49,011 nucleotides of DNA from a virus: UHGV virus genome UHGV-1353889. One strand, given 5' to 3'. Under the pieces are notes generated by a model that was given only the letters and a program-made list of their open reading frames with translations, was not told where the DNA came from and did not search any database. Within the stretch, counting starts at the first letter, position 1. The number at the start of each line of letters is the position of its first letter. Shown here in pieces: positions 121-49,011 of this stretch. The position numbers were made by a program, and so were the translations under genes.

Positions 121-1228
121 CACGCACAGAACCGCCGTTGGCATGTGCTAGTTGCACTTCAATAGCATCAGCGGGCCATTCGTGCTCGTTCATAATCGTG
201 CTGAATTCATGCCTGAATCCGTGACCGCTTTCCAGACCCTCATAGCCAATTTGTTTGATCACAAGCAATACCGCGTTCTCGCAGATTGGCTTCTTCTTAT
301 CGTTGCGCCCGGCAAAAACAAATTCTGATACTGGTTTAGTGATGGAGCTTAGCGTAGTGAGAAGTTCAACCACCTGGTCTGACATAGGAACAACATGAAT
401 CTTGCGGCCCTTCATCACACTGGCGTCGATAGTGATAATCCTGTTTTCAAAATCGACGTTCTTCCATTGCATGGAACGAAGCTCTTTCGTTCTTAGGGCT
501 GTGTAGCGTAAAACTTTGGTCGCAATGAGCGATACGATGCTTCCTGAAAATGTTGCCAGTGCTTTGTTGAATGCAGGGATCTGGTCTGCTGGAAGAAACG
601 GGAAGTTCTTCTTGCGGTATCCTTTCATGGCGTCTGCAAGGTCAGGTGCCGGGTTATATTTAGCCCTACCAGTAACAATAGCGTAACGGAAAACCTCGCC
701 GCATCTTCTGCGTGCTTTGTTGGCTCGCTCCATTGCGCCGCGATCTTCAAATCTGCGGATTACTTCCAGAAGTTGCATCGGCTCAATATCCTGAATTTCA
801 AGGCTGCCGATGATAGGTAAAATGTCGTCATCAAACATTTTGGCAAGTTCAGTTGCATAGCCTACTGACCAGACTTGCTTCTTGTGCTCGTACCATTCCT
901 TGTAAATCGCACTAAAGGAATTGTTGTTAGACGAAGCCTTTTTCGCCTTTACAGGATCGATGCCAACCGAGATGTCTTTCCTCGCGGTCCATGCTTTATC
1001 CCTTGCCTCCTGCAAAGTCATAAGCGGATATTTTCCGACGGTCAGGATTTTCTCCTTACCGTCAATCTTGTAGCGAAGCTGCCATACCTTTTTTCCGGAT
1101 ACAGGGACATAAAGGTACAGACCATTACCATCGAGTAGGCGGTATGGTTTTTCTTTCGGCTTTGCTGCTTCAATCTGCTTAACGGTGAGCATGGGTAAAA
1201 ATCCGGTGGGTAAAATTATTTTATCCAC
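35..1228 (-). CDS. int: Tyrosine recombinase / phage integrase (P4-like family)
   Basis: 397 aa; N-terminal arm-binding-like region, C-terminal HGFRHEFST ... VRGIYNHAQY catalytic signature (R-H-R-Y); terminal position in prophage. Confidence 0.9.
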   Translation of the reverse strand: MDKIILPTGFLPMLTVKQIEAAKPKEKPYRLLDGNGLYLYVPVSGKKVWQLRYKIDGKEKILTVGKYPLMTLQEARDKAWTARKDISVGIDPVKAKKASSNNNSFSAIYKEWYEHKKQVWSVGYATELAKMFDDDILPIIGSLEIQDIEPMQLLEVIRRFEDRGAMERANKARRRCGEVFRYAIVTGRAKYNPAPDLADAMKGYRKKNFPFLPADQIPAFNKALATFSGSIVSLIATKVLRYTALRTKELRSMQWKNVDFENRIITIDASVMKGRKIHVVPMSDQVVELLTTLSSITKPVSEFVFAGRNDKKKPICENAVLLVIKQIGYEGLESGHGFRHEFSTIMNEHEWPADAIEVQLAHANGGSVRGIYNHAQYLDKRREMMQWWADWLDEKVE

Positions 1229-1441
1229 TTTTTACCCGTCATGGAGTGCGGCTGTCAACGATCTGACGCGAACCATTACGAACTGTGAATCTACGGAAGG
1301 CTTGATATTCAGGGGATTTTGCGGACTGGTACGGATGGGAGCGAACTGATAAATGGTGTCCCCTGCAGACATCTACTTGAAGCAGCAGGGGATTGATTAA
1401 AATGGTGTTTTTTAGGTGTGAGAAATATTTTACCCGCTATT

Positions 1442-1642
1442 TTACCCATTGGCGCGGCTTAAGAGCTTATTTTTGAATTCACAATGGTCACGATATAACC
1501 ATCTTGCTCGACCGTGGATAACTTTGGCTTTAGGCAGGTCGCCGGACTTAATCCGGTCGTAGATGAAGGTTTTACCAAAGCCAGTATCAGCCATGATGAA
1601 TTTCAAATCAACCAGTGAATCAGGTTGTAGTTCGTGTTGCAT
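1442..1642 (-). CDS. AlpA/Xis-like small DNA-binding protein (putative excisionase or regulator)
   Basis: 66 aa, adjacent to integrase; helix-turn-helix-like segment ADTGFGKTFIYDRIKSG typical of AlpA-family proteins. Confidence 0.5.
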   Translation of the reverse strand: MQHELQPDSLVDLKFIMADTGFGKTFIYDRIKSGDLPKAKVIHGRARWLYRDHCEFKNKLLSRANG

Positions 1643-1773
1643 GAGTGCTATCTCCGAATAGGGAATCGAACCTGCAAATCAGGCAATAAAAAACCGCCAT
1701 CAGGCGGCTTGGTGTTCTTTCAGTTCTTCAATTCGAATATTGGTTACATTGTTTTAATATATGAATAAATAAA

Positions 1774-3544: not shown

Positions 3545-3708
3545 TGGTTGCCTCCTTTGCGCCACATCGCATTCAGATATTTGTTTTGATTTACTGATGG
3601 AAAAGAATTTCTCTTAAGTAATTCCTCTCTCGATGGCATTGGCTTTACGCGTTGGCGAATAATCATTTCTGCCGGAAGAATGCCGGGATTGTATGCAAGT
3701 CCTCTCAT
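3541..3708 (-). CDS. Small conserved protein (55 aa), hypothetical
   Basis: Manual translation [55 protein letters not shown]; near-identical copy at 44091..44258; below the 60-aa cutoff of the ORF track. Confidence 0.45.
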
Positions 3709-3724
3709 GGTAAATTCCTCTTTG

Positions 3725-4039
3725 TTAATTTATTCGTATGCCTGTTCTCTCTTCATCGAGTTTTTTTAGCTTGTATCGCATAGCTCTCACTGAATAAATT
3801 GAGCGGCAGGTTGCAATTGCTATTTCTTCTGCGGAGAACTTACCGAAAAGTGATACTTCGGCTCTTGTCCAGCGTCTTCCACGAAGTCGGCTAACAATGT
3901 CAGCGCCAATCCTTGTTGCTTTCGCCATTACTGCTTTTTCAGTCCTTTCCAGTTTTTCAGCGATAACTTCAACTGGCATTGTCGCCGCTACTTCGCGTAA
4001 GAAATCGACTTCCCATTTCTCCCAAGGAGTCTTTTTCAT
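3725..4039 (-). CDS. Conserved phage protein, putative DNA-binding (two HTH-like segments)
   Basis: 104 aa; near-identical paralogue at 44553..44867. Confidence 0.45.
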
Positions 4040-4050
4040 AGGCGATACCG

Positions 4051-4539
4051 TTATTTGATAAGAAGTGAAGGTTTCCCAACTTTGAGTTGAGCACCGGGGA
4101 TATTTATTCCTGCTTTTAGTTGGTGTTTGATTGCCAGTTTGTCGGCTTTAATTGTCGTTTCGAACTCAACGTATTCAGGAGGAAGGGCGCTTGAGTCGAT
4201 GATTTCTACAGTTTCTGACGGTTTGCGGATTGTTACCTGGTGAATACCTGCTCGAATCTTTTTCTTTCCAACCATTTCAAGCGATGACGCTATATACGTC
4301 ATAATGCTATCAATCTTATTTTGAATTACTGCTGCTCTTTCATTCAGTGACTTTGCCTCTTCCTTGAGGCGTTCAGCATAACCAGACTCATTTTTAATGA
4401 TGGCAAGAAGTTGCTCTATTTTATCGGTAAATTCTCCTTCCATGCCTTCTATTGTGTCAGCAATCATCTCTGGTTCTAAATCTGAATCCATCAATTTTGC
4501 GTATTCATTGGCAATTTCATACAGTTTGCTCACTGGCAA
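4051..4539 (-). CDS. Gp157-like protein (Sipho_Gp157 family, tentative)
   Basis: 162 aa acidic coiled-coil protein directly downstream of the RecT-family gene, the usual partner position; identical copy at 44879..45367. Confidence 0.5.
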   Translation of the reverse strand: MPVSKLYEIANEYAKLMDSDLEPEMIADTIEGMEGEFTDKIEQLLAIIKNESGYAERLKEEAKSLNERAAVIQNKIDSIMTYIASSLEMVGKKKIRAGIHQVTIRKPSETVEIIDSSALPPEYVEFETTIKADKLAIKHQLKAGINIPGAQLKVGKPSLLIK

Positions 4540-5428
4540 CCTCCAGTTTCGCTTTGCATTCTATGTAAATGGCTTGTACGTTCTGCTGCAATTTCATTCC
4601 AGATGTCAGGCGATATGCTTCTGCAAAATATCGCTTCAAATCATCCATGTTTTCTGCCTGAGCCATTTCATCACAAAGAAGTTGTGCTTTATCCGTTATT
4701 TCCTGCTGGCGTTTCCGTTCATCTTCGCGGATATCTTCCTCTGATTTGTGCGGCATAACTGGTTCAGTCCACACACCTTCTTCTTCGTTTAGTACGTGAA
4801 TAGCACTATCAAGACGTGATGCCTTAGGCCAATACTTGCTTGCACGCTTTACGACCGTCTTTCGCGCCATCTCATTCCAGTGATTTACCCATGGTCCTTT
4901 ATCGCTGAATGCCGCCTTGCTTGTTTTCCTTACAGCCTCAATTTCAGCCAGACTCATCTCTTCCGTTAGATAATCACCTGCTGGCGTCTTAACTGTGCAG
5001 TAAACGCCAACGATATCACCACGATCACCGAAGGCGTTGTATTTATGGGTTGGTGCTTTATCAAGCCCGTTTGACTCATAGGTATCGTTAGCATGAACAA
5101 GTTTTGCCTGACCCCATGAGATAACACCAGACTCCATTGCAATATGGAGCAATCCCATATAGCTGATATCAAGGCAAACCATGCCGTCGCGCGGAACCAG
5201 ATAAGCCAGTTTGCTAGCCGGGTTTAAGGTGATGCCGATCGCCGCAACATTGATGATGGCGTTCTGTGCGCTGGTTGGATTTGCCAGTGCCGTTTTAGCC
5301 AGGTAATCATTTTTCTGGAAATACTGAATTGCAAACTGGCTTTCCTTAGCCCATGTCACCGTCTGTTCAGTCAATGCTCCGCAGAATAACTGCTCCTGCT
5401 GTTTAACGAATTCAACGATATTGCTCAT
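4517..5428 (-). CDS. RecT-family single-strand annealing recombinase
   Basis: 303 aa; segment GPWVNHWNEMARKTVVKRASKYWP parallels the RecT core GPWVTHWEEMAKKTAIRRLFKYLP; identical copy at 45345..46256. Confidence 0.75.
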   Translation of the reverse strand: MSNIVEFVKQQEQLFCGALTEQTVTWAKESQFAIQYFQKNDYLAKTALANPTSAQNAIINVAAIGITLNPASKLAYLVPRDGMVCLDISYMGLLHIAMESGVISWGQAKLVHANDTYESNGLDKAPTHKYNAFGDRGDIVGVYCTVKTPAGDYLTEEMSLAEIEAVRKTSKAAFSDKGPWVNHWNEMARKTVVKRASKYWPKASRLDSAIHVLNEEEGVWTEPVMPHKSEEDIREDERKRQQEITDKAQLLCDEMAQAENMDDLKRYFAEAYRLTSGMKLQQNVQAIYIECKAKLEVASEQTV

Positions 5429-5736
5429 GCTGCTTCTCCATAAATGTGTCTGCGTTTGAATATTGCGAAGGCATATTCAGCCTTAACTCTTTCGGTTATT
5501 GCATCCCAGAACCATTCAGCGGCTTTTTCCTGATAGTTACAGTCATCATCTTCCAGCCAGTCGATAGCGTCCTTAGTGTGTTCATCTGGTTTATATGAGC
5601 GAAGCATTTCGCTTATTGGGTCGCAACGTTTGCAGAGACGATCAACTTCACTGTTGATTCGTTCGTAATCTTCATCAGTAAAACTTGCGATAATTTGCGA
5701 TATTTCACGCTTATCATTCAGAGTCAGAATCATCAT
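5425..5736 (-). CDS. Hypothetical early protein
   Basis: 103 aa, start overlaps RecT-family gene stop; copy at 46253..46564 with one substitution. Confidence 0.45.
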   Translation of the reverse strand: MMILTLNDKREISQIIASFTDEDYERINSEVDRLCKRCDPISEMLRSYKPDEHTKDAIDWLEDDDCNYQEKAAEWFWDAITERVKAEYAFAIFKRRHIYGEAA

Positions 5737-5817
5737 CTTTCTCCTGTTCTTTGTGCTGATTGAGCATTTTGTTCATCTGACGAATGAATTCTTCGTCTGA
5801 CCAGTTATCTGTAAAAC

Positions 5818-6018: not shown

Positions 6019-6221
6019 AAAACGCCTCGAGTGAAGCGTTATTGGTATGCATATAAAAAGGCCCTCACACTGGAGGGCAAAGAAGATTTCCAATAATCAG
6101 AACAAGTCGGCTCCTGTTTGGTTACGAGCGACATTGCTCCGTGTATTCACTCGTTGGAATGAATACACAGTGCAGTGTTTATTCTGTTGTTTATGCCAAA
6201 AGAAGGCCGACTATGCGGCCT
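6019..6221 (-). terminator. Cluster of hairpins including two intrinsic terminators (tL-like region of the leftward operon)
   Basis: Minus-strand hairpins at 6204-6221 (AGGCCG..CGGCCT followed by U-run) and 6061-6078 (GCCCTC..GAGGGC followed by U5), plus further hairpins at 6019-6038 and 6144-6170. Confidence 0.5.
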
Positions 6222-33705: not shown

Positions 33706-34155
33706 GTGTTCATGCTTACTTGTTTTGATGTCGCCGACTACTTCCTGTCGCGGTGTGACGAGGATAGCGGTGACACAATCTCTAATTTAAAATTACAAAA
33801 GCTTGTTTACTATGCTCAGGGTTTTTCATTGGCGTTGCTTGGCGAGCCTCTTTTTCAGAATAAGATGGAAGCTTGGATGCATGGCCCTGTTGTCCCTGAG
33901 CTTTATCGCCGTTATAAACAATATGGTAATGGCGCTATCCCTTCTCCAGAGTCTTTTGATGCTGAAAAATTCAGCGAAGAACAGTTAGAGCTATTAGAAG
34001 AAGTCTGGGATGTTTTTGGGCAATTTTCTGCCTGGAAACTGAGGAACATGACACACGAAGAGTCACCATGGAGATCAAACTATATTGAGGGTGTTGGTGG
34101 TTCTGAAATTAGCTCTAAGGAGATGGCAGAGTACTTTGCAACTCGGATTAACTAA
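33706..34155 (+). CDS. Panacea (DUF4065/COG3600)-like domain protein, putative antitoxin/adaptor
   Basis: 149 aa; NLKLQKLVYYAQG ... EAWMHGPVVPELY matches my recollection of the DUF4065 signature. Confidence 0.6.
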   Translation: MFMLTCFDVADYFLSRCDEDSGDTISNLKLQKLVYYAQGFSLALLGEPLFQNKMEAWMHGPVVPELYRRYKQYGNGAIPSPESFDAEKFSEEQLELLEEVWDVFGQFSAWKLRNMTHEESPWRSNYIEGVGGSEISSKEMAEYFATRIN

Positions 34156-34159
34156 CGAG

Positions 34160-34579
34160 ATGGCAAGAAAATCTAAAAGGATTATCCCCCCTGCTGAATC
34201 TACAGGTAAGTTAAAGTTAGGGCCGCAGTCAGGGGGGAATTCAGATCAAAAGAAACCGAAGTTTTCATTCTGTTACATCCAAAGCTCTCACTGCATAACG
34301 AAATGCCAAAAAGATGAGAAAGCTGGCTTAGCTGATAAATTATACAGATTAAGTCAACTAACATGGGCAGAGATTAAGCAGCAAGGTAGGCATAAGCTTG
34401 GATTTGAGAAGATTGCAAGGGGTGCAATTAAAGCAGGTATCCCCAGTCATATAACGGAAGACGTAGATCATTTCTTGGCTTTTAGATTTGATGATTTGAA
34501 AGCCATGGTTGGTTATCGTCTTGGATCGACATTTTTTGTTATATGGCTTGATAGAGAGTTCAACCTATACAAGCACTAA
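34160..34579 (+). CDS. Uncharacterized 139-aa partner of the Panacea-like gene (candidate toxin/effector)
   Basis: ATG 5 nt after upstream stop; basic disordered N-terminus, C-terminal beta-rich segment YRLGSTFFVIWLD; terminator follows. Confidence 0.5.
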   Translation: MARKSKRIIPPAESTGKLKLGPQSGGNSDQKKPKFSFCYIQSSHCITKCQKDEKAGLADKLYRLSQLTWAEIKQQGRHKLGFEKIARGAIKAGIPSHITEDVDHFLAFRFDDLKAMVGYRLGSTFFVIWLDREFNLYKH

Positions 34580-34582
34580 TAA

Positions 34583-34607
34583 AACCCACCGTCAGGTGGG
34601 TTTTTTA
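34583..34607. terminator. Bidirectional intrinsic terminator
   Basis: Hairpin AACCCACCGTCAGGTGGGTT flanked by A-run upstream and T-run downstream. Confidence 0.65.
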
Positions 34608-34631
34608 TAAGGAGTAATCATGATTTACCCA

Positions 34632-35168
34632 TCAAACAACCCACCAGTTTGCCTGATTGGATGCCAGCCTTGCAGTTTTTATGGAATTAATTATGCCATG
34701 CTCAAGAGCCTTGTTAGCATCCAAAATGGTCGAGTCTGCTATCAGGGATGCCCACCTAATATGGGTTCCGATGTCGATATTGAACGTCTCAACGAAGCGA
34801 TCAAGATCGTTATCGAGGCATTTCCCGTACTCTCTCAGTCTGGCATGGTCGGCGGCTGGGGTGGCAAAGCCCCATAATAGAGGATGTAACAGGAATCTTG
34901 ATAATGGGTTTGCGAAACGTTCTGAGCCAGCCAGGAAAACGATATTAGCTATGGATTCAACATTGCTTATGTTGTGAGTTCTAACGGTAACAGGGAGTGA
35001 CTTAAGAAAGTTATACGCAGTAAAACCAGCGGCAGTTTCCCCTCCCTGACTTGATATATGGATATTTAATTCAGTTGCGCCTTGAGATAATGCGGTGAGA
35101 CAGTGGTTCTGAAGTTGCCCAACAGTGGCGGTGTTAACGGGGCATAAGAAATGAATTGTGTGCAGCAT
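34632..35168 (-). CDS. ClpP-like (S14-family fold) serine peptidase homologue
   Basis: 178 aa; ISSQGGETAAG parallels ClpP INSPGGVITAG; candidate triad Ser (VESIA), His (LLHPL), Asp (ILDAN); start overlaps mnt stop (TAATG). Confidence 0.6.
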   Translation of the reverse strand: MLHTIHFLCPVNTATVGQLQNHCLTALSQGATELNIHISSQGGETAAGFTAYNFLKSLPVTVRTHNISNVESIANIVFLAGSERFANPLSRFLLHPLLWGFATPAADHARLREYGKCLDNDLDRFVETFNIDIGTHIRWASLIADSTILDANKALEHGIINSIKTARLASNQANWWVV

Positions 35169-35416
35169 TATTTATCATCCTTACCATACATGGTTTTCAG
35201 CGTCTCCAGCAGCGCCTCTTTGAATTTGTCAGCTTCTTGCTGAGCAAATGACTCAACTGACTTTGGCGACCTATCTTCATCAATCGCGGCTTGCAAAATC
35301 ATGACGATCTCGGAGTTAACAGAGCGACCATTTTTTGATGCTCTAACAGCAAGAGCCTCGCGTAAAGATTCAGGGATTCTTACCGTAGTTGGAGAAATTG
35401 ACACACCCTTTGCCAT
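35168..35416 (-). CDS. mnt: Mnt-like repressor (ribbon-helix-helix)
   Basis: 82 aa; NGRSVNSEI RHH motif, same length as P22 Mnt. Confidence 0.7.
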   Translation of the reverse strand: MAKGVSISPTTVRIPESLREALAVRASKNGRSVNSEIVMILQAAIDEDRSPKSVESFAQQEADKFKEALLETLKTMYGKDDK

Positions 35417-35530
35417 AACACACCTTTGGTATTCAATTTGATATCAAAGTGTATGCAAAAAAATTTTGACTAGATATACTCACTTTGCTATCTTTTGTAT
35501 TCGAAAAGAGTTGTTTGTGTGGAGGGTAAC
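35417..35530. promoter_or_regulatory. Divergent immI promoter/operator region (mnt versus arc-ant)
   Basis: Palindrome TTTGATATCAAA and further inverted repeats between divergent RHH repressor genes. Confidence 0.45.
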
Positions 35531-35683
35531 ATGGAGAAAGAAATAAGTAAGATTTTGGTAAGGATGCCGCAGTCGTTAAAGGATGCTATCGGTAGCAGGG
35601 CAAAGGAAGAGTGCAGGTCGTTTAACTCAGAGGTTATCAAGCGCCTGATAGACAGCCTGAAGAAAGAGGGGGTGGCGATATGA
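35531..35683 (+). CDS. arc: Arc-like repressor (ribbon-helix-helix)
   Basis: 50 aa from ATG at 35531 with GGAGGG RBS; CRSFNSEVIKRLIDSLKKEGV parallels P22 Arc. Confidence 0.7.
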   Translation: MEKEISKILVRMPQSLKDAIGSRAKEECRSFNSEVIKRLIDSLKKEGVAI

Positions 35684-35862
35684 ATAAAGAAGATGGCTTT
35701 AAGTGCTCCTTCTGCGGAAAGCCTCAGCATGAATGTGCAATGTTGATTCGCGCTAAAGCAGAGATATTTATCTGTAGTGGTTGTGTATCTCTTTGCGTTG
35801 AAGCGATGGGGAAAGAGTTAAATTCTAGAAAAACAATGTTAGATGTGAACATAAAACAGTGA
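35680..35862 (+). CDS. ClpX N-terminal zinc-binding-domain-like protein (ZBD only)
   Basis: 60 aa; [10 protein letters not shown] ... [10 protein letters not shown] parallels ClpX ZBD CSFCGKSQHE ... YICDECVDLC; ATGA overlap with arc stop. Confidence 0.6.
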
Positions 35863-35924
35863 AGCCCCAACTGCGGGAACAGTCAGGGCTTCGGTTGTCA
35901 GTAAATCCGTGGAGAAAAACCAAC

Positions 35925-36827
35925 ATGAATAGTATAGCAATTTTAGAAGCAGTGAACACCTCTTACGTACCATTCAACGGTCAGCAAATTATCACCGCCA
36001 TGGCTGCCGGAGTTGCATATGTTGCGATGAAGCCAATCGTTGAAAACCTCGGAATGAGCTGGGGTACTCAGCAACAAAAACTTATGAAACAACTAGATAA
36101 GTTCAAATGTATTCATATGAATATGGTTGCTGCTGATGGAAAGCTTCGTAAGCTACTCTGCCTTCCTTTGAAGAAGTTAAATGGATGGCTGTTCAGCATC
36201 AACCCTGAGAAAGTTCGTGCTGACATCCGTGATAAACTGATTCAGTACCAGGAAGAATGCTTTACTGTACTGCATGACTACTGGACAAAGGGAAAGGCAG
36301 AAAATGCACGTAAGAAAACATCTGTTGATGACAGGACTCCGCTTCGTGATGCTGTAAATATGCTAGTCAGCAAAAAGCATCTAATGTACCCAGAAGCTTA
36401 TGCAATGATTCATCAGCGTTTCAATGTGGAAAGTATTGAAGAGCTTGATGCATCTCAGATACCGCAAGCCGTAGAGTACATCCACAGGGTAGTGCTTGAA
36501 GGTGAATTTATCGGCAAACAAGAGAAGAAAACCAACGAGTTTTCTGCAAAAGAAGCAAACAGCCTTGTATGGTTATGGGATTATGCCAACCGTTCACAGG
36601 CATTATTCCGCGAACTGTATCCGGCATTAAAACAAATTCAATCGAACTATTCCGGCAGATGCTACGACTACGGTCATGAGTTCTCGTATGTTATCGGAAT
36701 GGCGAGGGACGTTTTAATCAATCACTCACGAGATGTTGATATCAATGAGCCAGACGGACCAACGAATCTTTCCGCATGGATGAGACTTAAGAATAAAGAA
36801 TTACCTCCTTCAATACATAACTACTGA
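35925..36827 (+). CDS. ant: Antirepressor Ant
   Basis: 300 aa from ATG at 35925 (GGAGA RBS), same length as P22 Ant; follows arc in immI arrangement. Confidence 0.65.
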
Positions 36828-37005: not shown

Positions 37006-39951
37006 ATGACAGACATTACAGCCAATGTTGTAGTGAGTATGCCTTCGCAACTCTTCACTATGGCGCGTTCTTTTAAAGCAGTTGCCAATGGCAAAATTTA
37101 TATCGGTCAGGTTGACACTGACCCGGTAAATCCTGAAAACCAGATTCAGGTTTATGTAGAGAACGAAGACGGCTCGCACGTTCCTGTTTCGCAACCAATC
37201 ATCATTAACGCTGCTGGATATCCGGTATATAACGGACAGATTGCCAAATTCGTAACCGTGCAAGGCCATTCTATGGCTGTTTATGATGCGTATGGTACAC
37301 AGCAGTTCTATTTTCCTAATGTGCTGAAGTATGATCCTGATCAGTTACGGCAGCAATTAGAAGACCCAGATGGAGCGAATAAATACCCAAAACTTCAGAT
37401 AGCAAGATGGAGAGACAGTTATGATGTAAGAGGTTGGGGGGCTATTGGTGATGGTGTTCATGATGATACATCAGCTCTATCAGAATTACTTTCTGTTGCA
37501 ACAGGTGGTGAAAAGATAGATGGGCGAGGGCTTACTTTTAAAGTATCAACTCTTCCAGATGTCAGTCGATTTAAAAATGCTCGTTTTTTATTTGAGAGAA
37601 TACCGGGTCAGCCTCTTTTTTATGCTTCTGAAGATTTTATCCAGGGAGAGTTATTTAAAATTACAGATACACCGTGGTACAACGCCTGGACGCAGGATAA
37701 AACGTTTGTATATGACAATGTCATCTATGCGCCTTTTATGGCTGGAGACCGCCATGGTGTAAATAACCTCCATGTTGCATGGGTTCGCTCAGGAGATGAC
37801 GGGAAGACCTGGACAACGCCGGAATGGCTTACAGATTTACATGAAAACTATCCCACAGTTAACTATCACTGCATGAGTATGGGGGTTGTCAGAAATCGCC
37901 TTTTTGCTGTAATTGAGACGCGGACCGTGAGCGGAAATAAACTGCAGGTTGCAGAGTTGTGGGATCGCCCAATGAGTCGCAGCCTTCGCGTTTATGGTGG
38001 TATAACGAAAGCAGCAAATCAGCAAGTCGCTTATATTCGCATTACTGATCACGGATTATTTGCTGGTGATTTTGTCAACTTCTCAAACTCTGGTGTTACA
38101 GGTGTTACCGGGAATATGACGGTGACTACTGTTATTGATAAAAATACTTTTACAGTTACGACGCAAAATACCCAGGATGTGGATCAGAATAACGAGGGTA
38201 GATACTGGAGTTTTGGTACATCATTTCACTCGTCACCATGGAGAAAAACCAGTCTTGGAACTATTCCTTCTTTTGTTGACGGAAGCACTCCTGTTACTGA
38301 GATTCACAGTTTTGCGACGATTAGCGATAACAGTTTTGCTGTTGGCTACCATAATGGTGATATTGATCCACGCGAGCTTGGGATACTCTATTTCTCTGAT
38401 GCTTTCGGTTCTCCTGGTAGCTTTGTTCGCAGACGCATACCTGTAGAATATGAGGCGAATGCATCTGAGCCATGTGTAAAATATTATGATGGCATTCTGT
38501 ATCTGACGACCAGGGGGACATTAAGTACTCAACCCGGTAGTTCATTGCACAGAAGCTCTGATTTAGGTACATCATGGAATTCTCTTCGCTTCCCAAATAA
38601 TGTTCATCACTCAAACCTTCCTTTTGCCAAAGTTGGCGATGAGCTGATTATTTTTGGCAGTGAGCGCGCATTTGGTGAGTGGGAAGGAGGAGAACCTGAT
38701 AACCGTTATGCAGGAAATTATCCAAGAACATTTATGACCAGAGTTAACGTCAATGAGTGGAGTCTGGATAATGTAGAGTGGGTTAATGTTACTGATCAGA
38801 TTTATCAGGGCGGAATAGTTAACTCTGCGGTTGGTGTTGGTTCAGTTTGTATCAAAGACAACTGGCTGTACTACATTTTCGGTGGGGAAGACTTTCTAAA
38901 CCCATGGAGCATAGGGGATAACAACAGAAAATATCCTTATGTTCACGATGGTCACCCGGCTGATTTGTATTGTTTCAGGGTGAAAATTAAACAGGAAGAA
39001 TTTGTTTCAAGGGATTTTGTCTACGGAGCCACTCCTAACAGAACGCTTCCTACTTTTATGTCGACGTCAGGCGTGAGGACGGTTCCTGTACCCGTTGATT
39101 TCACAGATGATGTTGCCGTCCAGTCACTGACTGTCCATGCAGGTACATCAGGAAAAGTTCGCGCGGAAGTCAAACTTGAGGGTAATTACGCCATTATTGC
39201 GAAGAAAGTACCGTCTGATGATGTTACCGCTCAGAGATTAATCGTTAGCGGCGGTGAAACAACGTCTTCAGCAGATGGTGCAATGATAACGTTGCATGGT
39301 TCCGGAAGCAGTACTCCACGTCGCGCGGTATATAACGCACTCGAACATCTTTTTGAGAACGGAGATGTTAAACCTTATCTTGATAATGTAAATGCTCTTG
39401 GTGGTCCGGGAAACAGGTTCTCGACAGTTTATCTTGGCTCCAATCCTGTGGTTACCAGTGACGGAACATTAAAGACAGAGCCGGTCTCTCCTGACGAAGC
39501 ATTGCTGGATGCCTGGGGTGACGTCAGGTATATCGCTTATAAATGGCTGAACGCTGTCGCTATAAAGGGGGAAGAAGGGGCGAGGATACATCATGGTGTA
39601 ATCGCGCAGCAACTTCGTGATGTTCTTATTTCTCACGGACTCATGGAAGAAGAAAGCACAACATGCCGCTATGCGTTTCTTTGCTATGACGATTATCCCG
39701 CAGTATATGATGACGTCATTACTGGCCAAAGGGAAATGCCGCTGACTGATAATGACGGGAGCATCATTGTTGATGAGGATGATAATCCAGTGATGGTAAT
39801 GGAAGACATCATTGAGCGCGTTGAAATAACGCCAGCAGGATCTAGATGGGGGGTCAGACCTGATCTCTTATTCTATATCGAGGCGGCATGGCAGCGCAGA
39901 GAAATAGAAAGAATAAAAGCTAGGTTAGACTTAATAGAAGGGAAGCACTAA
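37006..39951 (+). CDS. Tailspike: P22 gp9-type head-binding domain fused to endosialidase-like Asp-box domain and C-terminal intramolecular-chaperone domain
   Basis: 981 aa; N-terminus matches P22 tailspike head-binding domain; Asp-boxes SGDDGKTW and SSDLGTSW; C-terminal self-cleaving chaperone-like module. Confidence 0.75.
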
Positions 39952-40240
39952 ATGTTTCGTTGGCGTCAAAAATATGAACTGCTCACATAAAGAAGTAAGC
40001 ACATTGGCAAAAAACATTGACGTCAACGAAATTAAATATAAAACATCATGCAGACATATTACCAATATTAATATAAGGTAATAAAAATATAATTTACAAA
40101 AAAGCCCGTTGGAAGCGACGGGCATTAACCGCGGTAATGGATAAATTATTAATGTTTTTAGATTGTGAACGATATCATATTGTGCGGAAGTAGTGAAGTA
40201 ACCATGTAAAATGATTGTTTCATAGCCTATGAGACACACA

Positions 40241-40360
40241 AGGCTTTGTGCTCTTCGATAGTTGTTAAGGCGGATCACTCTACCTTCTCATCAATCCAGT
40301 CCGCCCACCACTGCATCATTTCTCTGCGCTTATCGAGATACTGAGCATGGTTGTAAATTC
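40241..40360. repeat. Right copy of 120-bp direct repeat (integrase 3'-end fragment)
   Basis: 118/120 identical to 1-120; encodes last ~28 codons of integrase with an in-frame stop just upstream. Confidence 0.8.
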
Positions 40361-40429: not shown

Positions 40430-40660
40430 CTCAGGTCACTAATACTATCTAAGTAGTTGATTCATAGTGACTGGATATGTTGTGTTTTGTAGTATTATGC
40501 AGTCTATTATTTAGACTAAACCCTTCATAACATATTGATATTTACAGTGTTTTCTGTTTCTCGTTCAGCTTTTTTATACTAAGTTGGCATTATAAAAAAG
40601 CATTGCTTATCAATTTGTTGCAACGAACAGGTCACTATCAGTCAAAATAAAATCATTATT
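40430..40660. other. Lambda-type attachment site with P-arm-like, core (GCTTTTTTATACTAA at 40568-40582) and P'-arm sequences, i.e. attP-like rather than attL
   Basis: Core 15-mer exact; right flank matches lambda P' arm into int; left flank resembles lambda P arm (CAGGTCACTAATAC ... TTCTCGTTCAGC). Confidence 0.8.
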
Positions 40661-41726
40661 TGATTTCAATTTTGTCCCACTCCCTGCCTCTGTCATCACG
40701 ATACTGTGATGCCATGGTGTCCGACTTATGCCCGAGAAGATGTTGAGCAAACTTATCGCTTATCTGCTTCTCATAGAGTCTTGCAGACAAACTGCGCAAC
40801 TCGTGAAAGGTAGGCGGATCCCCTTCGAAGGAAAGACCTGATGCTTTTCGTGCGCGCATAAAATACCTTGATACTGTGCCGGATGAAAGCGGTTCACGAC
40901 GAGTAGATGCAATTATGGTTTCTCCGCCAAGAATCTCTTTGCATTTATCAAGTGTTTCCTTCATTGATATCCCGAGAGCATCAACATGCAATGCTGTTGG
41001 GATGGCAATTTTTACGCCTGTTTTGCTTTGCTCGACATAAAGATATCCATCTACGATATCAGACCACTTCATTTCGCATAAATCACCAACTCGTTGCCCG
41101 GTAACAACAGCCAGTTCCATTGCAAGTCTTAGCCAATATGGTGATGATTCTGCTGCTTGATAAATTTTCAGGTATTCGTCAGCCGTAAGTCTTGATCTCC
41201 TTACCTCTGATTTTGCTGCGCGAGTGGCAGCGACCGGGTTTGTTGTTATATGGCCTTCAGCTATTGCCTCTCGGAATGCATCGCTCAGTGTTGATCTGAT
41301 TAACTTGGCTGACGCAGCCTTGCCCTCGTCTATGTATCCATTGAGCATTGCCGCAATTTCTTTTGTGGTGATGTCTTCAAGTGGAGCATCAGGCAGACCC
41401 CTCCTTATTGCTTTAATTTTGCTCATGTAATTTATGAGTGTCTTCTGCTTGATTCCTCTGCTGGCGAGGATTTTTTCGTAGCGATCAAGCCATGAATGTA
41501 ACGTAACAGAATTATCACTGTTGATTCTCGCTGTCAGAGGCTTGTGTTTGTGTCCTGAAAATAACTCAATGTTGGCCTGTATAGCTTCAGTGATTGCGAT
41601 TCGCCTGTCTCGGCCTAATCCAAACTCTTTACCCGTCCTTGGGTCCCTGTAGCAGTAATATCCATTGTTTCTTATATAAAGGTTAGGGGGTAAATCCCGG
41701 CGCTCATGACTTCGCCTTCTTCCCAT
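40656..41726 (-). CDS. int: Integrase (lambda Int)
   Basis: 356 aa, near-identical to lambda Int as I recall it. Confidence 0.95.
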   Translation of the reverse strand: MGRRRSHERRDLPPNLYIRNNGYYCYRDPRTGKEFGLGRDRRIAITEAIQANIELFSGHKHKPLTARINSDNSVTLHSWLDRYEKILASRGIKQKTLINYMSKIKAIRRGLPDAPLEDITTKEIAAMLNGYIDEGKAASAKLIRSTLSDAFREAIAEGHITTNPVAATRAAKSEVRRSRLTADEYLKIYQAAESSPYWLRLAMELAVVTGQRVGDLCEMKWSDIVDGYLYVEQSKTGVKIAIPTALHVDALGISMKETLDKCKEILGGETIIASTRREPLSSGTVSRYFMRARKASGLSFEGDPPTFHELRSLSARLYEKQISDKFAQHLLGHKSDTMASQYRDDRGREWDKIEIK

Positions 41727-41922
41727 TTCTGATCCTCTTCAAAAGGCTACCTGTTACTGGTCGATTTAAGTCAACCTTTACCGCTGATTCGTGGAACAGA
41801 TACTCTCTTCCATCCTTAACCGGAGGAGGGAATATCCTGCACTCGCGTACCCATCGACGAACTGTTTCAAGGCTTCTTGGGCGTCGCTGGCGTGCGTTCC
41901 ACTCCTGAAGTGTCAAGTACAT
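41704..41922 (-). CDS. xis: Excisionase (lambda Xis)
   Basis: 72 aa, MYLTLQEWNARQRRPRSLETVRRWVRECRIFPPPVKDGREYLFHESAVKVDLNRP matches lambda Xis. Confidence 0.95.
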   Translation of the reverse strand: MYLTLQEWNARQRRPRSLETVRRWVRECRIFPPPVKDGREYLFHESAVKVDLNRPVTGSLLKRIRNGKKAKS

Positions 41923-44258: not shown

Positions 44259-44536
44259 GATTTACTCTCCACGAACTGGTCAATAGCCATGCTAAGTGAT
44301 ACACCTAAAGTCTCGATATGCTGCTGAATATCCTGTAGCGTCTGCGCCTGAGATAACAGGATTTCACGGTTGCATAACTCTTTGACCAGATGCTCAAACT
44401 TGCTGTAATAACCGATACGGCTTAGTGTTTCTTTCCCTGCATTCTCACCTTCTTTGATAATTCCTCTTTCATTAAGAATCAGGTCGTGTTTTGTTCCAGT
44501 AATAACGTATTTACCGAGGTCGATGTTTAGCTTCAT
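44255..44536 (-). CDS. Hypothetical protein (insertion relative to element 1)
   Basis: 93-aa ORF present only in element 2 between the 55-aa and 104-aa genes. Confidence 0.4.
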
Positions 44537-44552
44537 TGTTAATTACTCCATG

Positions 44553-44867
44553 TTAATTTATTTGTATGCCTGCTCTTTTTTCATCGAGTTTTTTTAGCTT
44601 GTATCGCATAGCTCTTACTGAATAAATTGAGCGGCAGGTTGCAATTGCTATTTCTTCTGCGGAGAACTTACCGAAAAGTGATACTTCGGCTCTTGTCCAG
44701 CGTCTTCCACGAAGTCGGCTAACAATGTCAGCGCCAATCCTTGTTGCTTTCGCCATTACTGCTTTTTCAGTCCTTTCCAGTTTTTCAGCGATAACTTCAA
44801 CTGGCATTGTCGCCGCTACTTCGCGTAAGAAATCGACTTCCCATTTCTCCCAAGGAGTCTTTTTCAT
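44553..44867 (-). CDS. Conserved phage protein, putative DNA-binding (copy of 3725..4039)
   Basis: 104 aa, 3 substitutions near C-terminus relative to element 1. Confidence 0.45.
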   Translation of the reverse strand: MKKTPWEKWEVDFLREVAATMPVEVIAEKLERTEKAVMAKATRIGADIVSRLRGRRWTRAEVSLFGKFSAEEIAIATCRSIYSVRAMRYKLKKLDEKRAGIQIN

Positions 44868-44878
44868 AGGCGATACCG

Positions 44879-45367
44879 TTATTTGATAAGAAGTGAAGGT
44901 TTCCCAACTTTGAGTTGAGCACCGGGGATATTTATTCCTGCTTTTAGTTGGTGTTTGATTGCCAGTTTGTCGGCTTTAATTGTCGTTTCGAACTCAACGT
45001 ATTCAGGAGGAAGGGCGCTTGAGTCGATGATTTCTACAGTTTCTGACGGTTTGCGGATTGTTACCTGGTGAATACCTGCTCGAATCTTTTTCTTTCCAAC
45101 CATTTCAAGCGATGACGCTATATACGTCATAATGCTATCAATCTTATTTTGAATTACTGCTGCTCTTTCATTCAGTGACTTTGCCTCTTCCTTGAGGCGT
45201 TCAGCATAACCAGACTCATTTTTAATGATGGCAAGAAGTTGCTCTATTTTATCGGTAAATTCTCCTTCCATGCCTTCTATTGTGTCAGCAATCATCTCTG
45301 GTTCTAAATCTGAATCCATCAATTTTGCGTATTCATTGGCAATTTCATACAGTTTGCTCACTGGCAA
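44879..45367 (-). CDS. Gp157-like protein (copy)
   Basis: Identical to 4051..4539. Confidence 0.5.
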   Translation of the reverse strand: MPVSKLYEIANEYAKLMDSDLEPEMIADTIEGMEGEFTDKIEQLLAIIKNESGYAERLKEEAKSLNERAAVIQNKIDSIMTYIASSLEMVGKKKIRAGIHQVTIRKPSETVEIIDSSALPPEYVEFETTIKADKLAIKHQLKAGINIPGAQLKVGKPSLLIK

Positions 45368-46256
45368 CCTCCAGTTTCGCTTTGCATTCTATGTAAATGG
45401 CTTGTACGTTCTGCTGCAATTTCATTCCAGATGTCAGGCGATATGCTTCTGCAAAATATCGCTTCAAATCATCCATGTTTTCTGCCTGAGCCATTTCATC
45501 ACAAAGAAGTTGTGCTTTATCCGTTATTTCCTGCTGGCGTTTCCGTTCATCTTCGCGGATATCTTCCTCTGATTTGTGCGGCATAACTGGTTCAGTCCAC
45601 ACACCTTCTTCTTCGTTTAGTACGTGAATAGCACTATCAAGACGTGATGCCTTAGGCCAATACTTGCTTGCACGCTTTACGACCGTCTTTCGCGCCATCT
45701 CATTCCAGTGATTTACCCATGGTCCTTTATCGCTGAATGCCGCCTTGCTTGTTTTCCTTACAGCCTCAATTTCAGCCAGACTCATCTCTTCCGTTAGATA
45801 ATCACCTGCTGGCGTCTTAACTGTGCAGTAAACGCCAACGATATCACCACGATCACCGAAGGCGTTGTATTTATGGGTTGGTGCTTTATCAAGCCCGTTT
45901 GACTCATAGGTATCGTTAGCATGAACAAGTTTTGCCTGACCCCATGAGATAACACCAGACTCCATTGCAATATGGAGCAATCCCATATAGCTGATATCAA
46001 GGCAAACCATGCCGTCGCGCGGAACCAGATAAGCCAGTTTGCTAGCCGGGTTTAAGGTGATGCCGATCGCCGCAACATTGATGATGGCGTTCTGTGCGCT
46101 GGTTGGATTTGCCAGTGCCGTTTTAGCCAGGTAATCATTTTTCTGGAAATACTGAATTGCAAACTGGCTTTCCTTAGCCCATGTCACCGTCTGTTCAGTC
46201 AATGCTCCGCAGAATAACTGCTCCTGCTGTTTAACGAATTCAACGATATTGCTCAT
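45345..46256 (-). CDS. RecT-family single-strand annealing recombinase (copy)
   Basis: Identical to 4517..5428. Confidence 0.75.
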   Translation of the reverse strand: MSNIVEFVKQQEQLFCGALTEQTVTWAKESQFAIQYFQKNDYLAKTALANPTSAQNAIINVAAIGITLNPASKLAYLVPRDGMVCLDISYMGLLHIAMESGVISWGQAKLVHANDTYESNGLDKAPTHKYNAFGDRGDIVGVYCTVKTPAGDYLTEEMSLAEIEAVRKTSKAAFSDKGPWVNHWNEMARKTVVKRASKYWPKASRLDSAIHVLNEEEGVWTEPVMPHKSEEDIREDERKRQQEITDKAQLLCDEMAQAENMDDLKRYFAEAYRLTSGMKLQQNVQAIYIECKAKLEVASEQTV

Positions 46257-46564
46257 GCTGCTTCTCCATAAATGTGTCTGCGTTTGAATATTGCGAAGGC
46301 ATATTCAGCCTTAACTCTTTCGGTTATTGCATCCCAGAACCATTCAGCGGCTTTTTCCTGATAGTTACAATCATCATCTTCCAGCCAGTCGATAGCGTCC
46401 TTAGTGTGTTCACCTGGTTTATATGAGCGAAGCATTTCGCTTATTGGGTCGCAACGTTTGCAGAGGCGATCAACTTCACTGTTGATTCGCTCGTAATCTT
46501 CATCAGTAAAACTTGCGATTATTTGCGATATTTCACGCTTATCATTCAGAGTCAGAATCATCAT
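46253..46564 (-). CDS. Hypothetical early protein (copy of 5425..5736)
   Basis: 103 aa with one substitution; track ORF 46253..46672 is an artificial read-through across the N gap. Confidence 0.45.
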   Translation of the reverse strand: MMILTLNDKREISQIIASFTDEDYERINSEVDRLCKRCDPISEMLRSYKPGEHTKDAIDWLEDDDCNYQEKAAEWFWDAITERVKAEYAFAIFKRRHIYGEAA

Positions 46565-46574
46565 CTTTCTCCTG

Positions 46575-46603
46575 NNNNNNNNNNNNNNNNNNNNNNNNNN
46601 NNN
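46575..46603. other. Assembly gap (29 N)
   Basis: Run of N characters. Confidence 1.
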
Positions 46604-46946
46604 TTTGTTCATCTGACGAATGAATTCTTCGTCTGACCAGTTATCTGTAAAACTCATTTCCTGCGATACCATGGAAGGTTGATAGCTGATTTCATCGCTT
46701 TATTTGCTTCAAGCCACATTTTTGAATCACCAATAAATCGGGCTATTACTGCTTTGTTTTGTGCAGCACGAAGCATCTGGTGATTAATGGCTATTTCATT
46801 GCGCATAATAAGACCTCAACTCTTTTCCATCCGTCACGTAATTTACGGGTGATTCGTTCAAGTAAAGATTCATTTAGTTGGAAGGCACCCATGCGAGCGC
46901 CTCCCGCGATTGCGTAAATCATGGGTGGTTCCTTATGTTGGTTTTA

Positions 46947-47915
46947 TTAGTAGGTTATTTTTGTTGCGAATACTTCGCCTTTTACGATGGCTGTTATGAT
47001 ATTTTTAGCAACATCTTCTGATGCGCCAACCTTGATAAGGTCAGCAAGTATTTTGTTATTTACGTCTTTCCGGTGAGCCTTATCCTTTGCTCTACGCTCT
47101 TCTTCGTCCTTGATTCTTTTTTCTTCTGCTATTCTGGCTTGCTCTTTTGCTTCAGCCTCGCGACGGATTCGTTCAGCCTCCTCCTGTGCTTTTCTGCGTT
47201 CTACTTCAATTGCTGCCTGCTTTTCTCTTTCAGCTCGTTCTGCTGCCTCTTTTGCTTCGCGCTGTGCTCGTTGCTCGGCTTCAATGCGTTCACGCTCTGC
47301 ACGCTCCGCTGCGGCCTTAGCTTCTGCTTCTCTCCTTGCTGCTGCTTCAATGTCGGCTTTTGCCTTTGCTTCGGCTTCTGCTCTGGCTTTCTCTTCAGCT
47401 TCTCTTTTTAAGCGGTCTTCATGCTCTCGCTTTTCCTGCTCCTCTTTGAGTCTTGCCTCTTCTCTTTGTCGGTCAAATTCGCGATCCATCAAAATCGCTA
47501 TTTCATGGTCAGACTCAATTTGCTTTGCGAGAGCTTCAGCTGCTGCCTTAGCTTCTTCTTCGGCTTTAATCCGCGCCTGTTCTTCCTCATAATCAGTAAG
47601 AGGCTGGCGTGCCTTGGCTTTCAGCTCATCAAGTCGATCACGCACTGTTTTGCGGTTGGCATCAATTAGCTTTGGAATTTCCTTCAGTTCAGCAACAAGG
47701 TCTTTGCCAAGACCATCGAGATATGTTTTCGTCTGCGCAACTTTATACGCCAGAGAAGCGATCTCCTTTCTGCCCTTTGCCGTTGTGATATCAGGCACAA
47801 AGGACATAACTTCACTTTCAACCTTTTGAAGGATTTCTTCAATCTGGTCGGCAGACTGAAATACAGTCATTGCATTTGCTTTTTCAATAACAACTAAATC
47901 TGTTACTTCACTCAT
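46947..47915 (-). CDS. Hypothetical protein with long Glu/Ala/Arg/Lys-rich coiled-coil region
   Basis: 322 aa; globular N-terminal ~120 aa then ~170 aa EAR-rich repeat; plus-strand ORFs in this span are low-complexity artefacts. Confidence 0.5.
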   Translation of the reverse strand: MSEVTDLVVIEKANAMTVFQSADQIEEILQKVESEVMSFVPDITTAKGRKEIASLAYKVAQTKTYLDGLGKDLVAELKEIPKLIDANRKTVRDRLDELKAKARQPLTDYEEEQARIKAEEEAKAAAEALAKQIESDHEIAILMDREFDRQREEARLKEEQEKREHEDRLKREAEEKARAEAEAKAKADIEAAARREAEAKAAAERAERERIEAEQRAQREAKEAAERAEREKQAAIEVERRKAQEEAERIRREAEAKEQARIAEEKRIKDEEERRAKDKAHRKDVNNKILADLIKVGASEDVAKNIITAIVKGEVFATKITY

Positions 47916-48939: not shown

Positions 48940-49011
48940 ATCTCACCTCAAATAATTCAGTGCAGTGTTTATTCTGTTGTTTATGCCAAAAGAAGGCCGA
49001 CTATGCGGCCT

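What the first reader, a model, noticed from the sequence alone, without database searches (positions are those of the whole stretch)
37006..39951. Chimeric tailspike with endosialidase-like domain, no adjacent O-acetyltransferase gene
The N-terminal ~110 aa match the P22 tailspike head-binding domain, but the body carries sialidase-type Asp-boxes ([16 protein letters not shown]) and a C-terminal intramolecular-chaperone module as in K1-capsule endosialidases. P22-like K1 prophages of the CUS-3 type are known to carry the phase-variable neuO gene with heptanucleotide repeats near this end; I find no such gene or repeat in the 290 bp after the tailspike.
Basis: partly seen in the sequence, partly recalled or inferred. 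Interest (0 to 1): 0.5.

Follow-up and report, generated by a model that had tools for sequence, protein, structure and literature searches.

The report
CUS-3-type K1 tailspike, neuO lost
This is the well-known capsule-cutting tailspike of the E. coli K1 phage CUS-3, in a relative that lacks the neighbouring capsule-acetylating gene neuO; about one in ten sequenced carriers of this tailspike lack it too, so the finding is correct but ordinary.

Summary
ORF 37006-39951 (+, 981 aa) has a P22-type head-binding domain, an endosialidase body with two Asp-boxes, and a C-terminal chaperone domain. It is 968/981 aa identical to SiaK1 of phage CUS-3. The three catalytic residues of the endoNF crystal structure are conserved.

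neuO is absent. There are no AAGACTC arrays and no NeuO-like coding sequence anywhere in the 49 kb. The 853-bp neuO cassette of CUS-3 is missing exactly between two copies of AAATATAAAA, of which one remains at 40034-40043.

This is not rare. Of 178 complete E. coli genomes with this locus, 18 lack neuO, in three different junction types. At least two of those types must be deletions. Two of these hosts, VR50 and Ecol_AZ159, are typed K1.

Downstream lie a 27-codon remnant of the CUS-3-type integrase gene, then an intact lambda attP, int and xis. So the integration module has been swapped.

The window itself looks like a de Bruijn contig that walks through two related circular phages.

Verdict: a new mosaic member of a known kind, of low interest. 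The modest added value is evidence for recurrent loss of neuO through short repeats, and the point that neuO-based surveys undercount CUS-3-like prophages.

The parts
37006..39951 (+). Tailspike gene. It is an ortholog of CUS-3 siaK1 (K1 endosialidase tailspike), 981 aa.
   Evidence: ORF list. 968/981 aa identical to CUS-3 ABQ88383; 36 nt differences, 25 of them in the first 300 nt. Pfam architecture.
37006..37344 (+). P22-type head-binding (tail-attachment) domain, aa 1-113.
   Evidence: Pfam PF09008, E=1.6e-66. PDB hits to Sf6 gp14 (7sg7) and P22 tailspike (1lkt, 2xc1, 2vky).
37441..38991 (+). Endosialidase N-terminal extension plus six-bladed beta-propeller catalytic domain, aa 146-662. The beta-barrel insert is at 37975-38223 (aa 324-406). 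Asp-boxes start at aa 262 and 517. Catalytic E488, R503 and R554.
   Evidence: Pfam PF12218, PF12217 and PF12195. Alignment to endoNF 3gvl/1v0e. Residue and motif check.
38992..39456 (+). Endosialidase stalk (tail-spike) domain, aa 663-817.
   Evidence: Pfam PF12219, E=1.2e-77. Aligned to the end of the endoNF crystal construct.
39457..39948 (+). C-terminal intramolecular chaperone domain, aa 818-981. It starts at the conserved Ser818 ([11 protein letters not shown]).
   Evidence: Pfam PF13884 from aa 818 at profile position 1. PDB 3gw6 (endoNF chaperone domain), E=8e-95 over aa 698-979. Residue check.
40034..40043 (.). Single copy of AAATATAAAA, which marks the empty neuO site (junction 40043|40044). 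In CUS-3 an 853-bp cassette sits here between two copies of this 10-mer. The cassette holds the promoter region, ATG, the AAGACTC heptads, the neuO body and the stop codon.
   Evidence: Alignments with CUS-3, phiv205-1 and ExPEC XM. The neuO stop codon lies inside the 3' repeat copy.
40104..40123 (-). Intrinsic terminator on the minus strand (GCCCGTCGCTTCCAACGGGC followed by TTTTTT). It faces the integrase side and is conserved in CUS-3.
   Evidence: Terminator scan. Identical in all relatives aligned.
40277..40360 (-). Remnant of the 3' end of a CUS-3/KplE1-type intS gene: 27 codons plus stop, IYNHAQYLDKRREMMQWWADWIDEKVE*.
   Evidence: Translation compared with the intact IntS encoded at window 35-1228. 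Homology to CUS-3 ends here. RefSeq marks it as a partial pseudogene in relatives.
40568..40582 (.). Core of an intact lambda-type attP (GCTTTTTTATACTAA), with phage arms on both sides.
   Evidence: Core located. In prophage vB_EcoP-720R6 and in Ecol_AZ159 the homology stops at this core and ybhB-bioA follow. Recognising the 15-mer as the lambda core rests on my own knowledge.
40656..41922 (-). Lambda-type integrase (40656-41726) and excisionase (41704-41922).
   Evidence: Pfam Arm-DNA-bind_1 (lambda Int arm domain), E=7e-33; Phage_integrase, E=5e-40; Exc, E=3.9e-41.

Best explanation
The ORF encodes the receptor-destroying tailspike of a temperate P22-like (Lederbergvirus) phage of the CUS-3 type, which infects K1-encapsulated E. 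coli.

Mechanism, inferred from near-identity to characterised proteins:
- The N-terminal head-binding domain (aa 1-113) anchors the trimer to the tail.
- The endosialidase body (aa 146-817) binds and cleaves alpha-2,8-polysialic acid capsule, using the E488/R503/R554 site.
- The C-terminal chaperone domain (aa 818-981) drives trimer folding and is then cut off at Ser818.

The lysogenic-conversion gene neuO, which in CUS-3 follows the tailspike, is absent. The missing segment is exactly the 853 bp lying between two 10-bp direct repeats (AAATATAAAA). I think loss by short-repeat (slipped or illegitimate) recombination is the more likely history, at about 0.6. The alternative is that this site was never filled, at about 0.35.

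Lysogens of this phage should therefore carry a K1 capsule that is never O-acetylated by the prophage. They should show no form variation and no NeuO-based exclusion of other K1 phages.

The integration module next to the tailspike has been exchanged. The CUS-3 intS gene is cut down to its last 27 codons and replaced by lambda attP-int-xis, which directs integration between ybhB/bioA and pgl.
For: - Identity and architecture.
- The CUS-3 record annotates siaK1 with endo-alpha-sialidase activity (evidence code IDA, PMID 16689790) and neuO with 19 heptads.
- CUS-3 plates on K1 strain EV36 (PMC10461980).
- Precise absence of the cassette between direct repeats.
- No neuO elsewhere in the window.
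- The same junction occurs in independent assemblies: Logan contig SRR5677845_2205, complete genomes VR50 and T309.Ta3, and three IMG/VR contigs. In total 18 of 178 complete E. coli genomes with this locus are neuO-less, while 158-161 carry neuO.
- Recurrent deletion. GPEC172 keeps 25 nt of the 5' edge and the last 43 nt of neuO, joined at a 9-bp repeat ATGACAAGA. The 720R6/Ecol_AZ159 type keeps 22 nt of the 5' edge. Whichever empty type is taken as ancestral, at least two of the three types must be deletions.
- K1 hosts. VR50 and Ecol_AZ159 are typed KL8A1/K1 with 14/14 genes in Data S1 of PMC13001214. VR50 is listed as OR:K1:H- in PMC8281228.
- Integration module. A pgl-bioA site for CUS-3-like phages is already reported in PMC9659370.
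Against: - No enzymatic or host-range data exist for this allele. It has 13 aa differences from CUS-3 SiaK1, none at the catalytic residues.
- The window-type junction carries no cassette-specific scar, so sequence alone cannot separate deletion from a never-filled site.
- In a very small sample, neuO-less types a and b share two SNPs (38718 T, 39304 G) that three neuO+ loci lack. That would also fit an old, separate neuO-less lineage.
- The window appears to be a graph walk through two phage variants. The linkage of this tailspike to one particular integrase in the source sample is therefore not proven by the window alone.
Confidence: 0.9

Rival explanations
1. The empty site is ancestral. 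This lineage of K1-tailspike P22-like phages never acquired neuO. CUS-3 gained the cassette as a moron, by illegitimate recombination at the AAATATAAAA microhomology.
For: - The window-type junction has no cassette-derived scar.
- It occurs with three different integration modules: intS/argW in T309.Ta3, lambda, and the torT-side site in VR50. That suggests some age.
- neuO-less types a and b share SNPs that the three neuO+ loci sampled lack.
Against: - The missing segment is bounded exactly by direct repeats, which is the classic deletion signature.
- Two other neuO-less junctions show that the cassette is lost repeatedly via short repeats or illegitimate joins.
- neuO+ loci are about nine times more common.
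Confidence: 0.35
2. Assembly artefact. The real phage or phages in the sample carry neuO, but the assembler dropped the cassette. This could happen through a low-coverage branch, trouble with the heptad repeats, or collapse of two variants.
For: The window has exact 54-nt overlaps between both of its ends and interior sequence. It contains 1.2 genome units with two different integrase modules, so it is a de Bruijn graph path through more than one variant.
Against: - The identical junction is found in complete genomes and in an independent Logan contig.
- A mis-join would be unlikely to land exactly on a natural 10-bp repeat also seen in 12 finished genomes.
Confidence: 0.05
3. The tailspike has shifted specificity, for example to O-acetylated polysialic acid or to K92-type alpha-2,8/2,9 polymer. 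neuO would then be dispensable or counter-selected for that reason.
For: 13 aa substitutions relative to CUS-3 SiaK1, 7 of them in the endosialidase body and chaperone domain.
Against: - The catalytic part is 99.6% identical in nucleotides to CUS-3 (11 differences in 2646 nt).
- The catalytic triad and Asp-boxes are intact.
- neuO-less prophages with this tailspike sit in hosts typed K1.
Confidence: 0.03

Closest known systems
Enterobacteria phage CUS-3 (CP000711), siaK1-neuO-int region
   Same: - The tailspike is 968/981 aa identical.
- The 92-bp stretch after the stop codon, the spacer with its minus-strand terminator, and the last 27 codons of intS are the same.
- The virion and replication genes are P22-like (38-49% of each window half matches at about 96%).
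   Different: - The 853-bp neuO cassette with its AAGACTC heptads is absent.
- intS next to the tailspike is truncated and replaced by lambda attP-int-xis.
- The ant-moron and early-left regions are mosaic.
- 25 of the 36 tailspike nucleotide differences are in the head-binding domain.
Escherichia phage vB_EcoP-720R6 (ON470605), a prophage at ybhB-bioA
   Same: It has the same tailspike-spacer-lambda att arrangement, at 98.9% identity over 3581 nt, and it also lacks neuO.
   Different: - Its neuO-less junction differs: it keeps 22 nt of the cassette's 5' edge and lacks the 19 nt CATCATGCAGACATATTAC.
- It is recorded as an integrated prophage with host flanks, whereas the window has an intact attP.
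Endosialidase endoNF of coliphage K1F (PDB 1v0e, 3gvl; chaperone domain 3gw6)
   Same: The domain order is the same: N-terminal extension, beta-propeller with beta-barrel insert, stalk, and C-terminal chaperone domain. The catalytic E/R/R residues and the two Asp-boxes are conserved.
   Different: - The N-terminal particle-attachment module differs: P22-type head-binding domain here, T7-type adaptor in K1F. The K1F adaptor type is from my own knowledge.
- There is a 7-residue insertion at about aa 423-429 relative to endoNF.
P22 gp9 and Sf6 gp14 tailspikes
   Same: The N-terminal head-binding domain is homologous (E from 1e-45 to 4e-64), and the gene sits at the same place at the end of the late operon.
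   Different: The receptor-binding body is an endosialidase beta-propeller, not a right-handed beta-helix endorhamnosidase.

Membership tests
Phage endosialidase (endoNF type, GH58) | Beta-propeller catalytic domain with a nested beta-barrel, followed by a stalk domain | tested here: met
   Pfam PF12217, PF12195 and PF12219, full length, E from 1e-46 to 8e-233. PDB 3gvl/1v0e, E=0 over aa 145-817.
Phage endosialidase (endoNF type, GH58) | Catalytic residues equivalent to endoNF E581, R596 and R647. The residue identities are from my own knowledge of the endoNF structure papers. | tested here: met
   They align to E488, R503 and R554 in the motifs ASEPC, TRGT and SERA.
Phage endosialidase (endoNF type, GH58) | Two sialidase Asp-boxes (S-x-D-x-G-x-x-W) | tested here: met
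   SGDDGKTW at aa 262 and SSDLGTSW at aa 517; chance expectation 0.007 per protein.
Phage endosialidase (endoNF type, GH58) | C-terminal intramolecular chaperone domain released at a conserved serine | tested here: met
   Peptidase_S74 starts at Ser818 at profile position 1. 3gw6, E=8e-95. The cleavage itself was not tested.
Phage endosialidase (endoNF type, GH58) | Depolymerises alpha-2,8-polysialic acid | not testable with these tools
   Annotated as experimentally shown for the 98.7%-identical CUS-3 protein (GO evidence IDA, PMID 16689790, in CP000711).
P22-like tailspike | N-terminal head-binding domain, with the gene at the end of the late operon after the ejection-protein genes and the ant moron | tested here: met
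   PF09008, aa 1-113. Neighbours in the Logan contig and the window are gp7, gp20 and gp16 homologues, Arc/Mnt and Ant.
CUS-3-type converting prophage | siaK1-type endosialidase tailspike on a P22-like backbone | tested here: met
CUS-3-type converting prophage | Phase-variable neuO with AAGACTC heptads immediately downstream of the tailspike | tested here: not met
   The cassette is precisely absent. No heptad arrays and no NeuO homolog anywhere in the window.
CUS-3-type converting prophage | IntS-type integrase next to the tailspike, with integration at argW | tested here: not met
   Next to this tailspike only a 27-codon intS remnant is left, followed by lambda attP-int-xis. An intact intS-attP-torI module does exist at window 35-1642. 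It belongs to the other variant in the contig.

The most novel reading that the evidence does not exclude
neuO is not a stable cargo of CUS-3-like phages. It is a cassette bracketed and internally seeded by short direct repeats (AAATATAAAA; ATGACAAGA) and it is excised repeatedly and irreversibly. On top of the reversible heptad switch there would then be a second, one-way 'OFF' route. neuO-less CUS-3-like phages would circulate as active viruses with swapped integration modules (argW, lambda att, torT side) in K1 lineages. In that case neuO surveys undercount these phages, and superinfection exclusion by capsule O-acetylation is dispensable for them.
Probability: 0.5. Interest if true: 0.3.

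Novelty: new member of a known kind. Interest (0 to 1): 0.15.

Why it matters
The practical significance is small.

[quoted passage not shown] In complete genomes, 18 of 178 loci with this tailspike have no neuO, so that proxy misses about 10% of CUS-3-like prophages.

Second, three different neuO-less junctions show that the conversion gene is lost repeatedly. This bears on whether capsule O-acetylation is under fluctuating selection.

Third, the locus shows how the same K1 tailspike-spacer block travels with at least three integration modules.

None of this changes what is known about endosialidase tailspikes.

Tried and rejected
- Searched for neuO elsewhere: heptad pattern with mismatches, tblastn of NeuO, and blastn of the whole cassette against the window. 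Only chance-level fragments were found.
- Tested whether the window comes from a GTDB species-representative genome by an exact 36-mer across the junction. No match.
- Tried to read King et al. 2007 (PMC1951898) and the VR50 genome paper (PMC4399054), to see whether neuO-less CUS-3 prophages were described. Neither is held. Full-text searches for CUS-3, CUS-3-like and neuO found no paper describing a neuO-less CUS-3-type phage.
- A search for the run id SRR5677845 found nothing, so the source host is unknown.
- I first suspected that torI was an insertion disrupting the argW-type attP at window 1369-1661. Comparison with K-12 KplE1 showed a normal intact attP, with the order intS-core-torI along the window, so I rejected that idea.
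- I considered the 115-aa ORF 39931-40278 (-) that spans the empty site as a possible replacement gene. It has no Pfam hit, contains the terminator hairpin and is split by neuO in CUS-3, so it is probably not a gene.
- SNP haplotypes of 12 loci were too few to decide between deletion and an ancestral empty site.
- No structure prediction was run. It is unnecessary given the match to crystal structures.

Full report
**Observation**

The ORF is at exactly 37006-39951 on the + strand and encodes 981 aa.
- Head_binding, aa 1-113, E=1.6e-66
- End_N_terminal, aa 146-212
- End_beta_propel, aa 213-662, E=7.9e-233, with End_beta_barrel nested at aa 324-406
- End_tail_spike, aa 663-817
- Peptidase_S74, starting at aa 818

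Both quoted Asp-boxes are present, at aa 262 and 517. Shuffled versions of the protein carry 0.007 such motifs on average.

Against solved structures the body matches endoNF of phage K1F (3gvl/1v0e, E=0, about 1050 bits, aa 145-817). The C-terminus matches the endoNF chaperone domain (3gw6, E=8e-95). The N-terminus matches the Sf6 and P22 tailspike head-binding domains. The endoNF catalytic residues E581, R596 and R647 (identities from my own knowledge of the structure papers) align to E488, R503 and R554. The conserved serine that opens the chaperone domain is S818.

**What the protein is**

Megablast puts it at 98.8-98.9% nucleotide identity to the siaK1 region of phage CUS-3 and to phage vB_EcoP-720R6. 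At protein level 968 of 981 residues equal CUS-3 SiaK1. Of the 36 nucleotide differences, 25 lie in the first 300 nt. The head-binding module therefore comes from a slightly different P22-like backbone, while the catalytic part is 99.6% identical.

The exact protein also occurs on Logan contig SRR5677845_2205. Its 90%-identity cluster has 3581 members, and all the named members listed are from E. coli.

The CUS-3 record marks siaK1 as an experimentally shown endo-alpha-sialidase. CUS-3 plates on K1 strain EV36 (PMC10461980). This is therefore a known protein.

**The missing neuO**

In CUS-3, phiv205-1 and ExPEC XM the tailspike stop codon is followed by 92 bp ending in AATTAAATATAAAA. Then comes the neuO cassette: promoter region, ATG, 18-28 AAGACTC heptads, the hexapeptide-repeat body, and a stop codon inside AATAAATATAAAA. 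After that comes CATCATGCAG... and a conserved minus-strand terminator.

In the window the 853 bp between the two AAATATAAAA copies are gone. One copy remains at 40034-40043. No heptad array and no NeuO-like coding sequence exist anywhere in the 49 kb.

**How common this is**

Counts among 5426 complete E. coli genomes:

| Category | Genomes |
|---|---|
| Contain the 300 bp around the junction | 178 |
| Junction uninterrupted (neuO-less) | 18 |
| Carry the neuO cassette | 158-161 |

The 18 fall into three junction types:
- Type a is the window type. I verified it in VR50, T309.Ta3, the Logan contig and three IMG/VR contigs. I infer it for ten further complete genomes from 300/300-nt single-piece alignments.
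- Type b is seen in 720R6, Ecol_AZ159 and four genomes with identical alignment statistics. It keeps the first 22 nt of the cassette and lacks the 19 nt after the 3' repeat.
- Type c is GPEC172. It keeps 25 nt of the 5' edge and the last 43 nt of the neuO coding sequence, joined at a 9-bp direct repeat ATGACAAGA. This is an unambiguous internal deletion.

Whichever of a or b is taken as ancestral, at least two of the three types must be deletions from a neuO+ state. neuO is therefore lost recurrently.

For the window's own type, the exact flanking repeats favour deletion. There is no scar, however, and a tiny SNP sample groups types a and b apart from three neuO+ loci. An ancestral empty site stays open; I put it at about 0.35.

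**Host capsule**

The window contains no host DNA. Two hosts of neuO-less prophages with this tailspike are typed K1. VR50 and Ecol_AZ159 are KL8A1/K1 with 14/14 locus genes in Data S1 of PMC13001214. VR50 is listed as OR:K1:H- in PMC8281228. This fits an unchanged K1 specificity.

**Surroundings**

After the terminator (40104-40123, minus strand) comes the last 27 codons plus stop of a CUS-3/KplE1-type intS gene (40277-40360). At that point homology to CUS-3 stops. An intact lambda-type attP follows (core at 40568-40582), then lambda-type int (40656-41726) and xis (41704-41922).

In 720R6 and Ecol_AZ159 the homology ends at the core and ybhB-bioA follow. A pgl-bioA site for CUS-3-like phages is already in the literature (PMC9659370). 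VR50 carries the same tailspike-spacer block next to torT, and T309.Ta3 carries it next to intS and argW. The block therefore travels with at least three integration modules.

**Nature of the window**

The first 54 nt equal 40241-40294 and the last 54 nt equal 6168-6221, both exactly. Early-left genes at 3705-5746 recur at 44533-46574 with 99.3% identity. Window 35-1642 holds an intact intS-attP-torI module of KplE1 type.

The window therefore looks like a complete k=55 de Bruijn contig that walks once around an IntS-type genome (about 40.2 kb) and then 8.8 kb into a lambda-int-type sibling. The two share roughly 6222-40240. Both attP sites are intact. The DNA was thus circular, concatemeric or tandem; tandem arrays exist, for example in ExPEC XM.

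The tailspike-to-lambda-int linkage is confirmed independently by the Logan contig and by finished genomes. Which of the two variants carried this tailspike copy cannot be told from the window, and nor can whether both did.

**Mechanism**

Shown here: domain architecture, conserved catalytic residues, absence of neuO, and module exchange.

Inferred from near-identity to characterised proteins: the trimer attaches to the tail through aa 1-113, the capsule is depolymerised by aa 146-817, and the chaperone domain is released at S818.

Inferred consequence: lysogens have no prophage-encoded, phase-variable K1 O-acetylation, and so no NeuO-based protection against other K1 phages. The functions of NeuO are as reported in PMC13001214 and PMC9659370.

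**Novelty and score**

The tailspike is already known. The neuO-less arrangement is present in GenBank and RefSeq, although I found no paper in the searchable library that describes it. Recent work treats neuO as a proxy for CUS-3. No phage record covers even one half of the window at 80% or more; the best covers 61% of the first half. It is therefore a new mosaic member of a known kind. Interest is 0.15.

Noticed in passing
window 1-54 vs 40241-40294; 48958-49011 vs 6168-6221; 3705-5746 vs 44533-46574: Both window ends overlap interior sequence by exactly 54 nt, and about 1.2 genome units are present, with mosaic early-left regions that are 99.3% identical over 2 kb. The window looks like a whole k=55 de Bruijn contig running through two related circular phages, one of IntS type and one of lambda-int type.
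   Followed up: partly
window 35-1677: An intact KplE1/CPS-53-type integration module: intS (35-1228, -), attP core CTGCAGGGGACACCA (reverse complement at 1354-1368) and torI, the recombination directionality factor (1442-1642, -). The 16-mer TTGCAGGTTCGATTCC, which the CUS-3 record annotates as the att core, lies beyond torI at 1662-1677. The published CUS-3 record may therefore end short of torI.
   Followed up: partly
window 46575-46603: A run of 29 N interrupts an early-left ORF (46253-46672, -). The paralogous copy has 21 nt at the same place (5747-5767).
   Followed up: no
window 33706-36827: The ant-moron region between the ejection-protein genes and the tailspike carries: a SocA/Panacea-domain antitoxin (33706-34155) with an unassigned partner ORF; a ClpP-like protease (34632-35168, -); two Arc/Mnt-like repressors (35168-35416, - and 35495-35683, +); a 60-aa protein that is only a ClpX-type zinc finger (35680-35862); and Ant (35859-36827). 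The pairing of a ClpP-like protease with a ClpX zinc-finger-only protein is unusual cargo.
   Followed up: partly
window 39931-40278 (-): A 115-aa ORF runs antisense across the empty neuO site and is annotated 'hypothetical protein' in 720R6 and RefSeq relatives. It has no Pfam hit, contains the terminator hairpin and is split by neuO in CUS-3. It is probably not a gene.
   Followed up: yes
L005 (E. coli ExPEC XM, NZ_CP025328.1, 822788-867353): Tandem CUS-3-like prophages at the lambda site, with an intact attP between the units. There are two neuO copies: one with 28 heptads (annotated as a short ORF) and one with 27 heptads (full length).
   Followed up: partly
L007 (E. coli GPEC172), L002/L010 (720R6, Ecol_AZ159): Two further, different neuO deletion junctions. 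In GPEC172 a 9-bp repeat ATGACAAGA joins the 5' edge to the last 43 nt of neuO. The 720R6 type is a join without clear microhomology that keeps 22 nt of the 5' edge.
   Followed up: yes
window 46947-47915 (-): A 322-aa early-left protein with a long, highly charged, low-complexity stretch rich in Glu, Ala, Lys and Arg (AEAEAKAKA...). It is present only in the lambda-int-type unit.
   Followed up: no
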